Source: Eledone cirrhosa (lineage: Eukaryota). From it: a stretch of DNA of 64,000 bases. Under the pieces are notes generated by a model that had not been told where the DNA came from, searched no databases, and was given only the letters and a program-made list of their open reading frames with translations. Location: the NCBI GenBank assembly GCA_964016885.1, contig OZ024742.1:139500001-139564000 (forward strand), written 5' to 3'. How positions within the stretch are numbered: the first letter of the stretch is position 1; each line of letters starts with the position of its first letter. Below are positions 5,402-41,400 of this stretch, one piece after another. Both the position numbers and the translations under genes were made by a program.

Positions 5402-5425
5402 CTCCTGGTGGCGTTAAATGTACAC
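5402..5425 (+). CDS. Micro-exon type A, 24 nt, phase 1-1 (xPGGVKCT)
   Basis: tctctgtatttacag|CTCCTGGTGGCGTTAAATGTACAC|gtaagt. Confidence 0.7.
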
Positions 5426-8400
5426 GTAAGTAATCATTATATAACAATACACATATTTTGTCCATATGAATTATTTTACAAGGATAGCAAGCAAATTTAT
5501 ATTTATTGGTCGATTACAATCTTTGAAAAATCAAATAAGGATTGCTTTATAAAATGTATAATGAAGCTAATGAAGACAGAAGCTGAAATACTTGAAGCCC
5601 TCAGCGGTTATACGATGAACATATCACCCGACTACGGTGGTCTCCTCTATGCGGTTTACATAGACATGTTAGATATGTTTTGCAATGATTATGATAATCT
5701 TCTCTATGAGTTTAACATAGACATGCTAGACTTGTTCTTGACACTCCTTCAACCTGAATGCAGCACAAAGTATTAATACAACGAAATTCTCTGTTCTGTA
5801 ATTCGGGGCGTAGTAAAGGTGATATATATTAATAAATGATCTAAAAGATATTATTTAATTTTTCATTATCACCGTAATGATATATATTTATCTGTATTTA
5901 CGGCGGCTGCTTCTACTAAATGTAAGTACTCATGATATAATAATATTTATTTTTGTCCATAAAGATAAATTATGTTTGTTACAAGCATAGCAGGTAAATT
6001 TACAGTCATTGATTTGTTACTATCTTTGATAAATCAGAAAAGAATTGTTTTATAAAATGTTTAATGAAACTTACTATAACAGAAGCTGAAATATTTGCAC
6101 ACCTGGCCGGTTGATCAAGTGGCAAATCACCCGGTTACGATGGCCTCCTTTCTGAGGTTTACATAGACAAGCTAAACTTGTTCTCCGATGGTTATGATCG
6201 TCTCCTCTATGAGGTTTTCACAGACATACTTGATTTGTTCTGGGCTTAATCCAGAGAAGTCAGTGTGTCTCCAGCTCACTGCTTGAGTGTCAAATCCATG
6301 CAGTTCAACTGCTTTGACAAACACTGGACGGACGGACCAATGACATTTGTTTGGGTCGTCAGGTTTTGTTTACACCTCCAGGTGGTTAAGGACTGGGATG
6401 AGGTAGCATGGACATACACATGAGGTAGCATGGATATACACACAAAGGCATTGTTTTGATATGCACCCTTTTTTCCTGCTATTAATTTTGTCTCTCACTC
6501 TTTTAAGTTGTGAAATAGACTGGTTAGCTACGCACGCAGCTGACACATTTCAGCTCGCTACTATATTGCTATATAATGGTTGATCGCATTTAAAGTCCGT
6601 TAAAGGTTCTTGGCACGAGCATTGTTACCATCGCTTTCCTCTAGCCTTGGAGACATGAACCGAAAGCTACCATTCTATTTTATATCAATGTGAACTGCTA
6701 TTTCTAAAGACCATCTTCTCACCCCTTGAAAATTTGTGTGTGAGACACGTTGGCTGGGTTCTTCTGACAGGAATGAAAAGATTTATTCTGTTTAGCTTCC
6801 CGTCCCCACGTAAAATTTGTAAATCAGTTGCTAGTTGAGAGATAGAGTCCTATCGGTTGCCAGTTGCTAATAGCTTTACCGTGTCAGTCGTCACAAACAG
6901 TCATGGCCGGCATGGACTGGTCTTAGGATTCTGTCGATCGATTAGTTATTGATTAGGCGATACCCGCTGATCAAGCTGCATAAGCCGATTGTGCATTGTT
7001 GCATAATATATGCAGACAGATGGTGCAGTGCACCTTACTGCTGCCTTAGTGCGGCAGAAACCCGAGTCCGGGTAACTTATAGACACCAGTTTTACGTGCG
7101 TTGTGTTGAAACAAATAACTTTGTGTATACTCTGGGAATGTATCTTACATTGCCCATGGAGTGCGCTGAGATACAACCGGTACTGGCATTGAAAAATATG
7201 CTGGGTCCGTCAACCCTTGTTATATATATATATATATATATATATATATATATATATATATATATATATATATATATATATATGTGAGTGCGTATGTATG
7301 TATGTAATTCATCGACGACTAAACCTGCAACCCCACCAAATTTACTTGGTGAGGAGGGTGATTTTGGATACCCTGCAGGACAAAAAACAAAACCTAACAA
7401 AGGGCGGAAGAACTCTTAAGAGTCAACAGCCATCCAAAAATCTGTAAATATGTCTATACATATATATGTATATGTAAATCTGTATATGCATGTGTGCATG
7501 TATATGTATATGCGTGGGGACATTGAAATTGTCGGGCTGGATACGATATCGCGCGGTTAAACCACTTGGAGTGAAGGACCACTAGTCTTTGTCACGGCAT
7601 TCTTCTAGGAAAAGGCAACTAAGGAAACTGGGATAACTCCGACATAAAACCTGCGGCTCAGTAGTTGCCGATGATGTTGATCTTTTCTTCTTTTCGGGTT
7701 ATAGCTACTGTCGCTCATAGAATGGGATTGGCTCAGTGCACAGTTTTTCCTCACTTTAAAAAACATCTTCACGCACACGCATTGCACAATGGTATTAATT
7801 AATAATTATTAATAATGTTATATCGTGCAATGGCCATACTCGATAACAAGGGGGCAGCCATCATGTATGTATATGATATTAAATAACAGTAAGTGTAAGT
7901 AGAATTCTAAAGTGAATATTTTACACACTATATATATATTTCTCAGTTTTCTCAAATGTCGCACGATAGTAAGTCTGTCGAGTGAGTAAAGCAGTCATCG
8001 TTCACTTTTAATTATGTTCTGGAGACTAAAATATATATAATGACTTAGGGAGATTTTTTTCTTGAGTAGGTAAGGCGTTACAACGAAATATAAGGCCATA
8101 TAATGTATCTTTGAATATATTGATTCATTAATATAGTTTATAAAAAAGAAAAGATTTGCTTAATTAAATATCGTATATATATGCTGTAAATTGATATATC
8201 ATTTAATAATAAAACTGACGATATTAATTCTAAAATTATATTAATGACATCATCTGTATTAGATAGCAAATGTATAGAAACTAGGACTTCCATTAAACTA
8301 TACATGTTTCTGTAATATATTTTTTATAAATGAAAGCAATTCTATTTCCGATAAAATATCAGTCGATCTGTCTTATTTGAATTTTTTTAATACTTAATGT

Positions 8401-38400: not shown

Positions 38401-41400
38401 AAAATAAACAAAATAATTTTTAATCATTACCATAATAAGATATATCTCTGTATTTACAGCTACTGTTACCGTTGAAATTACAAGTAAGTAATCATTATAT
38501 AACAATACACATATTTTGTCCATATGAATTATTTTACAAGGATAGCAAGCACATTTATATTCGTTGGTCGATTACAATCTTTGAAAAATCAAATAAGGAT
38601 TGCTTTATAAAATGTATAATGAAGCTAATGATAACAGAAGCTGAAATACTTGAAGCCCTCAGCGGTTGTACGATGAACATATCACTCGGCTACGGTGGTC
38701 TCCTCTATGCGGTTTACATAGACATGTTAGATATGTTCTGAAATGATTATGATAGTCTTCTCTATAAGTTTAACATAGACATGCTAGACTTGTTCTTCAA
38801 ACTCCTTCAACCTGCATGCAGCACAAAGCATTAATACCGGGAATTTCTCTGTTCTGTAATTCGGGGTGTAGTAAAGGTGGTTGAGAAAGGGGTTGTTATT
38901 GATAATATCCAACCCATAAATGTGCTTCACATACAGTTCAATACTTTGACCAATTTGCTAACAACCTGGTTGGCATTAGACCTGGAAATTGTGTTAGAAG
39001 ATTGGCAGACCAGCGAGTTTCCGGACTGGTCTATACAGTACTACCTCCACATCAGGTGATATATGGTAGAGAGTGTAGGGATTAAATCTGGCTTCGGTGG
39101 GGTTCTCGTCAAATTGGATCAATCGAAACTTTTCGATATTGTCCAACATCGATACCTAGAGAGTGTTCTCAAGGTAGCTGGATCTGGTCACGTGTTCAGA
39201 AGCTGGATCGTTGTAATGCGCAGCGGCATTACACAGTTCAAAGTAATTGACCACCTATCTTAAGTGTTCTATATCAATCACTTCTTACAACAAGAATGAC
39301 ATCTCCCCTCCTCTTGAAAGTTCTGTATCTCGAGCCAGAACTGCAGAAGCTGGAACATTTGTTGGAATTTTGTAATTATATATTATATTGTAATTATATA
39401 TTATTATAACCTTAATAATATATATCTCTTTGCATTTACAGCGACTGTTTCCAATGGAAATACACGTAAGTAATCATGACATAATAATATACATTTTTTT
39501 GTCCATTTTACAAGAATATCATGTGTATTTATACTCATGGTTAACTTTATGACAACAATATTTTGTGTTTTTCATATTATTCAATTCATAAAATTAACGA
39601 AAGTAGCAACATTTATTACCGTAATAATATATCTCTTTCTGTATTTACAGCGAAAGATCACACACACACATATATATATATATATATATATATATATATA
39701 TATATATATATATAATATATATATAATATATATATATATATATATATATATATATATATATATATATATATATATATATATATATATATATATATATATA
39801 TATATATATATATATATATATATATATAATATATATATATATATATATATATATATATATATATATATATATATATATATATATATATATATATATATAA
39901 TATATATATGTGTGTGTGTGTGTGTGCGTGTGTGTTGCAATGTGATATATTTATTTTAATAATAAGAGTAACGATATTAGTTCCATCTTAAATTATATTA
40001 AGTACATCGACTGTATTAGCTAGCAGCTGTATATCAGCTAGGTCTCCCTTTAAAGTATACATGTTTATTCAATGTTGGATCTGTTTCTTGACTCGCAACC
40101 TCCTCCTTTGCTGTTCAACATTTGACCATGTTGTCTTGTGGAATGTGTCTTGCAGTAGACAAAGAAAGGCAACTTTACCATGGGTATATCTGCTGTAACC
40201 GGATTATTTGATGCAGGTGTGGATATAAATGGATTTGCTATATTTCTTGAATGACTTGCTTAAATTTAATTGTCTAACGTTAAAATTAAGCCACTCCTAA
40301 AAATAAATATGAACTTTTCAGTTATAACAAATATCTATAGTTTAGTGGATTGTAATATTCATTCATTGACAGCAAGCCACAGATTGTATAGCTAAGCATC
40401 GGACTTCTAAACCTGTGAGGTCTCCGAGCCAATACCTCGTGTGTCTATGTTGTAATTCAATCCTATACGGGATTCCATAAAAAGAATTCGTTAGATGTGC
40501 TTGCATTTATGCGTGTTGTTTCCACCTTCGGTTCTACCACTATGTCCGCTTCCTTTATACTATAAGCAATTGGTTTATATGTTAAATATTCTTATGTTCA
40601 GCCATACGGATGATGACAACAATGGCGCTTATGGATATACCCTAAAGTTGCTGATAACTACATTTTCGCGTGATAGCTTTAGTATTTCACAGATCGTATT
40701 GCAACTTTACTTATGAGGCTGCGCCAAGTAAGGTTCTTTTAGTGAGGCTGTATACACTATATATTATTCTCTCTACGAAAGAGTAACGGTAAGTCAACTG
40801 CCATGTTTGTGAGATATAGAATGGACTCTCCTATCGAGAACGACGCATGTTCTTCCAGTTGTTTTGTTTGAGGAACTGAGCGATCTACTCGGCAATATTT
40901 CGATTTAAATATAACGGAAGTGAAAGAATAAATTTAACAACGTAGATCAAACGCAGACACCTGATTTTATCCACAATCTATCTATCTATCTATCTATCTA
41001 TAAGGGTGAGTGATCTCTTTTCCTCTTTTAACTTTTCAGCACCAACATGGCCAATATAAGAGTTGGATGTGTGAACGTACGCGGCCTGGGGATGCCCTGG
41101 AAACAGGGCAAACTCTTAAACGACCTCAGGTCGCACAGTTTGGATGTGGTAGCCATTTGCGAGTCCAGGATCCACGGCGAGCGACAGCTGGCCCCCATCT
41201 TCGATGACTTTGAGATCTACGCATCTCTCTGTCAACCGGGGGGTGGGGGCGGAGTTGCCGTTTTGCTGCGGAAACACCTGGGCCTCGTAACACAGACGGT
41301 ACATCTGGACCCGGAGGGTCGACTGGTGGTCCTAGACGTTGACGGTAGTGAAGGTGGAGCGTTCAGGCTGGTGGCCGCATATGCCCCATCCGGGACACCG

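What the first reader, a model, noticed from the sequence alone, without database searches (positions are those of the whole stretch)
5402..38483. All variation among the ten type-A micro-exons is non-synonymous
Seen: across the ten 24-nt type-A exons (9 distinct sequences), the eight third-codon columns are invariant (T,T,T,C,T,A,T,A), while 13 of the 16 first/second-position columns vary (e.g. codon 3 = GGT/ACT/GCT/GTT/CCT; codon 4 = GGC/AGC/ACC/CCC/GTC). By eye the flanking intron is far more conserved than the exon. Inference: this 3-nt periodicity independently supports the reading frame and suggests diversifying selection on the peptide, as in immune, allorecognition or gamete-surface proteins.
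Basis: partly seen in the sequence, partly recalled or inferred. Interest (0 to 1): 0.85.

Follow-up and report, generated by a model that had tools for sequence, protein, structure and literature searches.

The report
Fast-evolving micro-exon gene family in cephalopod
A cephalopod carries three neighbouring genes made of dozens of 24-base candidate exons whose protein-changing positions differ about ten times more than the DNA around them, which likely means selection keeps diversifying a small surface glycoprotein, a design described mainly in parasitic blood flukes.

Summary
Observation confirmed: ten 24-nt AG...GT exons (9 distinct); 0 of 8 third-position and 13 of 16 first/second-position columns vary, and every change alters a residue. 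The emphasis needs correcting. Third-position invariance is the neutral expectation (P=0.41 from intron diversity). The real signal is a 10-12-fold excess at positions 1+2 over introns and third positions. It survives base-composition, tree-based and exon-only N:S tests (29:1, P about 0.003) on 48 copies. The window holds the 3' end of one of three tandem genes in a cephalopod genome. Each has a 49-nt phase-1 signal-peptide exon, 6-32 phase-1 micro-exons encoding Thr/Ala/Pro/Val/Gly/Ser-rich octapeptides, and a likely last exon with a GPI-signal-like tail. The signal exon and stops in the rival frame fix the reading frame; periodicity alone does not. Best reading: a mucin-like surface peptide under diversifying selection, shuffled by gene conversion, likely with exon skipping. 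It resembles schistosome MEG and SmPoMuc genes, likely by convergence, but its amino-acid excess is far stronger. No transcript evidence was obtainable; splicing, anchor and partner are inferred.

The parts
5402..5425 (+). type-A micro-exon, 24 nt, phase 1-1, intact AG/GT
9266..9289 (+). type-A micro-exon (only about 50 nt of homologous downstream flank)
10317..10340 (+). type-A micro-exon; differs from its positional match in gene copy 2 by a short exon-centred tract (8 differences in 10287-10340, 6 in the exon; next difference at 12698)
13597..13620 (+). type-A micro-exon; has a stop in the rival frame 0; differs from its copy-2 match at 3 exon sites
14099..14116 (+). the only type-B 18-nt exon of 34 with both splice sites intact
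17212..17235 (+). type-A micro-exon
22102..22125 (+). type-A micro-exon (identical to 26958)
26958..26981 (+). type-A micro-exon (identical to 22102)
32048..32071 (+). type-A micro-exon
34530..34553 (+). type-A micro-exon with only about 15/10 nt of type-A flank, in a different intron setting
36001..36024 (+). type-D-like 24-nt exon with a degenerate acceptor here (intact in gene copy 1); coordinates counted by hand
36210..36233 (+). type-C 24-nt micro-exon, older diverged type, intact splice sites
38460..38483 (+). type-A micro-exon, last of the type
39442..39465 (+). type-D 24-nt micro-exon, last of the array; encodes a Ser-Asn-Gly that could be a GPI attachment site (inference)
430..27479 (+). 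five splice-dead type-B 18-nt pseudo-exons (430, 5904, 17714, 22604, 27462), each about 500 nt after a type-A exon
53307..53374 (+). likely last coding exon: phase-1 acceptor, 21 further codons with an 11-residue hydrophobic stretch, stop; identical in all three gene copies; AATAAA at 53610. Picked by eye among 31 relaxed candidates. The matching signal-peptide exon lies outside the window (G000:C3:139400058-139400106).
   Evidence: signal exon

Best explanation
The window holds the 3' end of one of three tandem genes whose 24-nt candidate exons differ at codon positions 1 and 2 about ten times more than their introns and third positions do, most likely because diversifying selection acts on a predicted GPI-anchored, mucin-like surface peptide. 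Shown: each gene has one 49-nt signal-peptide-like exon with a phase-1 donor, 6, 21 or 32 splice-intact phase-1 micro-exons in kb-sized tandem units, and one candidate last exon in the same phase. Shown: units turn over by duplication and are mosaics, with introns about 96% alike. Inferred mechanism: unequal crossing-over and short gene conversion keep copying and shuffling units, point mutations arise at the neutral rate everywhere, and only residue-changing ones in the exon are preferentially kept. Inferred product: because every micro-exon is symmetric, any subset splices in frame, so the genes likely give a pool of O-glycosylated surface peptides of differing length and sequence. The selective agent I think most likely is a parasite or microbe that binds this surface coat (about 0.45), ahead of gamete recognition (0.25), self-recognition between cells (0.15) and other agents.
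For: Positions 1+2: 28 distinct changes at 16 sites in 48 copies against 3.7 expected from base-matched flank rates (Poisson 6e-16); third positions 2 against 1.4 expected. IQ-TREE partition rates on 42 of 48 units: flank 0.81, exon 1+2 10.0, exon 3rd 0.68; parsimony steps per site 0.36, 5.2, 0.38. Exon-only N:S 20:0 (window) and 29:1 (48 copies) against an expected synonymous share of 0.24, P 0.004 and 0.003; pN 0.347, pS 0.014. Between six older exon types: flanks 0.247, third 0.264, first/second 0.551. All 48 type-A exons keep AG/GT. Signal exon found exactly three times in the genome, once before each array, behind a TATA-like box; last exon three times, once after each array. All-in models have no internal stop, 75-80% S/T/P/A/G/V, 29-43% S+T. 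Four-gamete incompatibility within and around exons and an exon-centred swap between gene copies show recombination or conversion.
Against: No transcript or protein evidence. The last exon was picked by eye and is 1 of 31 relaxed candidates, 5 of them with a comparably hydrophobic stretch; no GPI predictor was run. The splice-dead type-B exons also vary only at positions 1+2 (4 of 12 columns against 0 of 6; pi 0.13 against flank 0.026; Fisher P=0.08), so they are not a clean neutral control; I read this as a relic of two lineages, which is untested. Recombination makes the trees approximate, and the 48 copies are not independent. Retention of 48 of 48 splice sites is not significant by itself at this divergence. 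One genome only, so no polymorphism or ortholog test. It is not obvious how one 8-residue unit is visible to selection if all units are spliced in together.
Confidence: 0.66

Rival explanations
1. The gene is a constitutively spliced structural mucin-like polymer (mucus, egg coat, skin or sucker material). Selection favours heterogeneity among repeats, such as glycan pattern or Cys cross-links, rather than escape from or recognition of a partner.
For: No folded domain; composition stays S/T/P/A/G/V-rich. Gene 3 has 16 Cys, mostly one per octapeptide in its 5' half, gene 1 none. No docking-site complementarity for mutually exclusive splicing was found.
Against: A roughly tenfold excess with many different residues accepted per site is more typical of antagonistic coevolution (established knowledge). 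PMC2576457 passages describe structural repeat genes (spider silk) as having exons under purifying selection.
Confidence: 0.19
2. Exons are old lineages protected by purifying selection while only the introns are homogenised (the SmPoMuc and silk model), with third positions held by a splicing-enhancer or codon constraint.
For: Proposed for SmPoMuc in PMC2576457 (passages read). Introns are clearly homogenised here (pi 0.036).
Against: Third positions diverge at the intron rate both within type A (0.68 against 0.81) and between old types (0.264 against 0.247), so they are neither old nor frozen. No broad shoulder of raised divergence beside the exon; only the 24-nt bin at -48..-25 is raised (0.072).
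Confidence: 0.07
3. A local mutational process (CpG or G/C-biased mutation, or templated mutagenesis as in diversity-generating retroelements) produces the pattern without selection.
For: Seven of eight third positions are A/T, whereas positions 1+2 are G/C-rich; flank G/C sites vary 1.6-1.8 times more. Dead type-B exons show a weak trend the same way.
Against: Base-matched expectation 3.7 against 28 observed. CpG-like flank columns show 0.29-0.56 changes per site against 1.75. The third-position C of codon 4 (followed by G in 30 of 48) never varies. Many variable columns never or almost never hold A, and no template-like skeleton match lies outside the exons in 664 kb.
Confidence: 0.04
4. The true frame starts at base 1 (phase 0), giving a conserved Leu-rich octapeptide under ordinary purifying selection, with the invariant columns as second codon positions.
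For: In frame 0 many differences are synonymous, and exons 5402 and 9266 give the same peptide.
Against: Stops in 4 of 59 intact exons in frame 0 against 0 of 59. The signal exon ends in phase 1. It would need synonymous sites to run about tenfold faster than introns.
Confidence: 0.03

Closest known systems
Schistosoma micro-exon genes (MEGs; PMC4350168 and PMC4699917, passages read)
   Same: Signal peptide; most of the coding region in tandem symmetric exons of 6-36 nt; secreted or membrane-anchored products; tandem gene expansion; raised dN/dS in the mature part and not the signal peptide.
   Different: Said there to appear restricted to platyhelminths; this genome is a cephalopod. MEG ortholog dN/dS above 1 was 1.10-1.14; here the excess is about tenfold, measured between paralogous exons inside one array. 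Exons here are recent copies of one unit with 96%-alike introns. Alternative splicing is reported for MEGs and untested here. No homology tested or expected.
SmPoMuc polymorphic mucins of Schistosoma mansoni (PMC2576457, passages read)
   Same: One short exon (27 nt there, 24 here) inside a kb-scale tandem genomic unit; introns more than 93-94% alike by concerted evolution; exons more different than introns; multigene family with mosaics; microsatellites in the units.
   Different: SmPoMuc has essentially two repeat types (r1, r2), whose differences the authors assign to purifying selection, and a 13-exon 3' part. Here there are 26 distinct type-A exons among 48, a nonsynonymous excess, and a single short candidate last exon.
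CD24/CD52-type and trypanosome GPI mucins (recalled, not tested)
   Same: Signal peptide, short Ser/Thr-rich mature part, hydrophobic GPI-type tail, no folded domain.
   Different: Not built from micro-exon arrays; unrelated in sequence as far as known; the GPI anchor here is only inferred.
Venom and toxin gene families with exons evolving faster than introns; Dscam exon arrays (both recalled)
   Same: Intron-conserved, exon-accelerated pattern; tandem alternative exons.
   Different: Those exons encode folded domains. Dscam uses docking-site pairing, for which no sign was found here.

Membership tests
Micro-exon gene (MEG) architecture | Most coding sequence in very small symmetric exons (6-36 nt, multiple of 3) | tested here: met
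   59 splice-intact exons of 15, 18 or 24 nt in three genes; only the 49-nt first and 68-nt last exons are longer. Predicted from genomic sequence.
Micro-exon gene (MEG) architecture | N-terminal signal peptide; secreted or membrane-anchored | tested here: met
   16-residue Met-Lys plus hydrophobic exon with phase-1 donor, one per array; hydropathy only, no predictor.
Micro-exon gene (MEG) architecture | Isoform pool by alternative splicing | not testable with these tools
   No RNA holder listed.
Schistosome MEG families 1-25 | Platyhelminth origin and sequence homology to a MEG family | tested here: not met
   Genome encodes molluscan haemocyanin closest to cephalopod entries. Protein homology could not be searched: no contiguous stretch of 30-40 residues.
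SmPoMuc | Short exon in about 1-kb tandem units with homogenised introns | tested here: met
   A-to-A spacing about 1-13 kb, flank pi 0.036.
SmPoMuc | Few repeat types kept by purifying selection; 15-exon gene with conserved 3' part | tested here: not met
   26 distinct of 48 exons, N:S 29:1; one candidate last exon.
GPI-anchored mucin-like proteins | C-terminal small-residue site, spacer, hydrophobic tail, no cytoplasmic part | tested here: inconclusive
   Tail hydropathy about 2 over window 7, 2.56 over 11 residues; exon choice not unique; no GPI predictor.
GPI-anchored mucin-like proteins | Ser/Thr/Pro-rich O-glycosylated body | tested here: inconclusive
   S+T 29-43%; glycosylation not testable.
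Dscam-type mutually exclusive arrays | Docking-site/selector complementarity | tested here: not met
   Only 11-12-nt chance matches (E 0.4-0.9) between one masked unit flank (-110..+474) and the first or last intron; a narrow test.
Diversity-generating retroelement | Template repeat with A at variable sites | tested here: not met
   No skeleton match outside the exons in 664 kb (the pattern caught 43 of 48 exons); several variable columns have no A.

The most novel reading that the evidence does not exclude
A free-living cephalopod has independently evolved a MEG-like diversity generator: each transcript keeps one or a few of up to 32 individually selected octapeptide exons between a shared signal peptide and a shared GPI signal, giving a combinatorial barcode of short surface glycopeptides for immune evasion, gamete choice or cell self-recognition.
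Probability: 0.22. Interest if true: 0.87.

Novelty: new variant of a known kind. Interest (0 to 1): 0.64.

Why it matters
Micro-exon genes have been described as apparently restricted to flatworms (PMC4350168) and read as a parasite's answer to host immunity. A convergent family in a cephalopod, with a much stronger amino-acid excess, would show that the design is a general route to surface-peptide diversity. The locus is also an unusually clean natural experiment: 48 copies with matched intron and synonymous controls separate positive selection from intron-only homogenisation, which are usually confounded in repeat genes. Exons of 24 nt in introns of several kb are likely to be missed by gene annotation (inference), so similar genes may be hidden in other mollusc genomes.

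Tried and rejected
Transcript evidence: no RNA holder listed. Three contig runs of one sample laid on 3700-11600 were swamped by a high-copy SINE and showed no rows at exon positions, so they neither confirm nor question the exon alleles. An exact 25-nt search for the last exon in metagenome contigs found 0. My first flank statistics were inflated by non-homologous flanks of units 9266 and 34530 (flank pi about 0.10) and were redone with non-homologous parts masked; 6 of 48 units with short flanks were left out of the trees. Strict splice scans missed the last exon, so further unseen exons are possible; a relaxed scan gave 3 weak internal candidates, one present in all three copies. A hydrophobic + strand ORF at 62575 was rejected as last exon: it is deleted in copies 1 and 2 and overlaps an opposite-strand exon. 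Homolog search for that opposite-strand exon: 3 candidates, none significant. Docking-site and template-repeat searches were negative. Paper searches gave no cephalopod or mollusc micro-exon gene in their listings (open-access library only, bioRxiv supplements closed). Earlier-finding look-ups returned nothing. codeml is not installed; partition rates and counting tests were used instead.
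Full report
Observation. After masking non-homologous flank, 48 of 458 distal intron columns vary (pi 0.039) against pi 0.39 at exon positions 1+2 (Fisher P=3e-10). Eight invariant columns are expected at the intron rate with P=0.41. So the unusual thing is not frozen third positions but accelerated first and second positions. A first attempt was distorted by two units with short homologous flanks and is superseded.

Context. The window is G000:C3:139500001-139564000 of a 3.0-Gb assembly. 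The genome has molluscan haemocyanin genes (39 matches) whose best single-unit matches in solved structures are 4yd9_C and 1js8_A (503 and 498 bits) ahead of 8tnv_A (369). I recall these as squid, octopus and gastropod, so the animal is a cephalopod; octopod is a guess from recalled SINE likeness. In 664 kb fetched around the window there are three arrays, at about 139.177-139.189, 139.274-139.339 and 139.413-139.539 Mb, inside large tandem duplications about 99.7% alike upstream of the arrays. They hold 48 type-A exons (26 distinct), 34 type-B 18-nt copies and a few older 24-nt types. All 48 type-A copies keep AG and GT; 33 of 34 type-B copies have lost one or both. All 28 scored matches to a type-D query, and the 40 scored of 87 candidates for a type-A query, lie in this locus.

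Gene model (predicted). About 11-13 kb before each array lies an identical 49-nt exon: Met-Lys, a hydrophobic run, Cys, one spare base, GTAAGT, with a TATA-like box about 60 nt upstream. It occurs exactly three times in the genome. About 14-18 kb after each array lies an identical 68-nt exon (window 53307-53374) in the same phase, with a Ser/Thr spacer, 11 hydrophobic residues and a stop; three full copies in the genome. This last exon was found by eye. A relaxed scan gives 31 candidates present in all three copies, 5 with similar hydrophobicity, of which three lie in the antisense of a retroelement-like ORF region (retroelement identity recalled). Joining all intact exons gives open frames of 83, 206 and 292 residues from 6, 21 and 32 micro-exons, 75-80% S/T/P/A/G/V, with 0, 2 and 16 Cys (gene 1 has one more intact exon that the parser skipped).

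Frame. It is not: read from base 1, the invariant columns are second positions of a conserved Leu-rich peptide.

Selection tests on 48 copies. Positions 1+2: 16 of 16 columns vary, 28 distinct changes, pi 0.37; third positions 2 of 8, pi 0.025; distal flanks 131 of 706, pi 0.036. Distinct alleles cannot be made by shuffling, so this count does not depend on the tree. Matched for base, 3.7 changes are expected at positions 1+2 and 1.4 at third positions; CpG-like flank columns reach only 0.29-0.56 changes per site against 1.75. On 42 of 48 units with long flanks, partition rates are 0.81 (flank), 10.0 (exon 1+2) and 0.68 (exon 3). Parsimony steps per site on the flank tree are 0.36, 5.2 and 0.38; on the exon's own tree 3.1 for positions 1+2 against 0.53 for flanks. 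Inside the exon alone, N:S is 20:0 and 29:1 against an expected synonymous share of 0.24 (P=0.004, 0.003). Between six older exon types, flanks differ by 0.247, third positions by 0.264 and positions 1+2 by 0.551 (15 non-independent pairs). Against: the dead type-B copies also vary only at positions 1+2 (4 of 12 against 0 of 6; P=0.08 against flanks); copies are not independent; four-gamete failures of 11-26% show recombination that blurs any tree.

Mechanism. Shown: unit duplication, mosaic units, and a swap between gene copies 2 and 3 confined to about 54-330 nt around exon 10317. Inferred: crossing-over and conversion homogenise introns and reshuffle variants, while selection keeps residue-changing mutations. 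Inferred: symmetric 24-nt exons in kb introns are prone to skipping (established knowledge) and any subset is in frame, so an isoform pool is likely; no docking-site pairing was found. Selection on single octapeptides is easier to explain if isoforms carry few of them, but this is untested. The likely product is a GPI-anchored or secreted mucin-like peptide with no folded domain; a binding parasite or microbe is my first guess at the selective agent.

Comparison. It works like schistosome MEGs (signal peptide, symmetric micro-exons, raised dN/dS; PMC4350168 and PMC4699917, passages seen) and is built like SmPoMuc (short exon in a homogenised kb unit; PMC2576457, passages seen). It is a member of neither: different phylum, and SmPoMuc exon differences are assigned to purifying selection among two types. 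DeMarco 2010 was seen only as cited. Six searches of the open-access library listed no cephalopod or mollusc equivalent; subscription papers are not covered.

Verdict. Real feature, strong and well-controlled nonsynonymous excess, a new variant of the micro-exon gene design outside flatworms. Expression, splicing, anchor and function remain inferred. Interest 0.64.

Noticed in passing
window 62879-62680 (- strand): Phase-1 terminal exon of a different, convergent gene: transmembrane segment and short tail with Tyr motifs. No homolog found. The stretch 62417-64072 is deleted in the two upstream duplicated copies.
   Followed up: partly
L064 (G000:C18:17783707-17783766): A 60-nt, 100% identical piece of the last codons and 3' UTR of the candidate last exon sits between repeat fragments on another contig; possibly a captured fragment.
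   Followed up: partly
G000:C3:139416028-139482519: The 5' half of gene 3 is an expansion of Cys-bearing octapeptides, one Cys per unit, absent from gene 1 and rare in gene 2.
   Followed up: partly
window 430-27479 and upstream arrays: Type-B 18-nt exons fall into two lineages, one with a dead donor and one with a dead acceptor (mostly both); the single intact copy at 14099 looks like a recombinant of the two.
   Followed up: partly
window about 4800-5290 and equivalent places: Inverted pair of SINE-like repeats 110-600 nt upstream of many type-A exons; could pair in pre-mRNA and affect splicing or editing.
   Followed up: no
window 39651-39658: Truncated type-C exon: intact acceptor, then a CA/TA microsatellite and no donor; present after each array.
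   Followed up: no
window 41040-44700 (+) and 47760-51009 (-): Retroelement-like insertions in the last intron, one with LINE-type endonuclease and reverse-transcriptase frames (identity recalled).
   Followed up: no
G000:C3:139244384-139247117: Perfect 591-bp tandem repeat (100% identical copies) upstream of gene 2 only.
   Followed up: no
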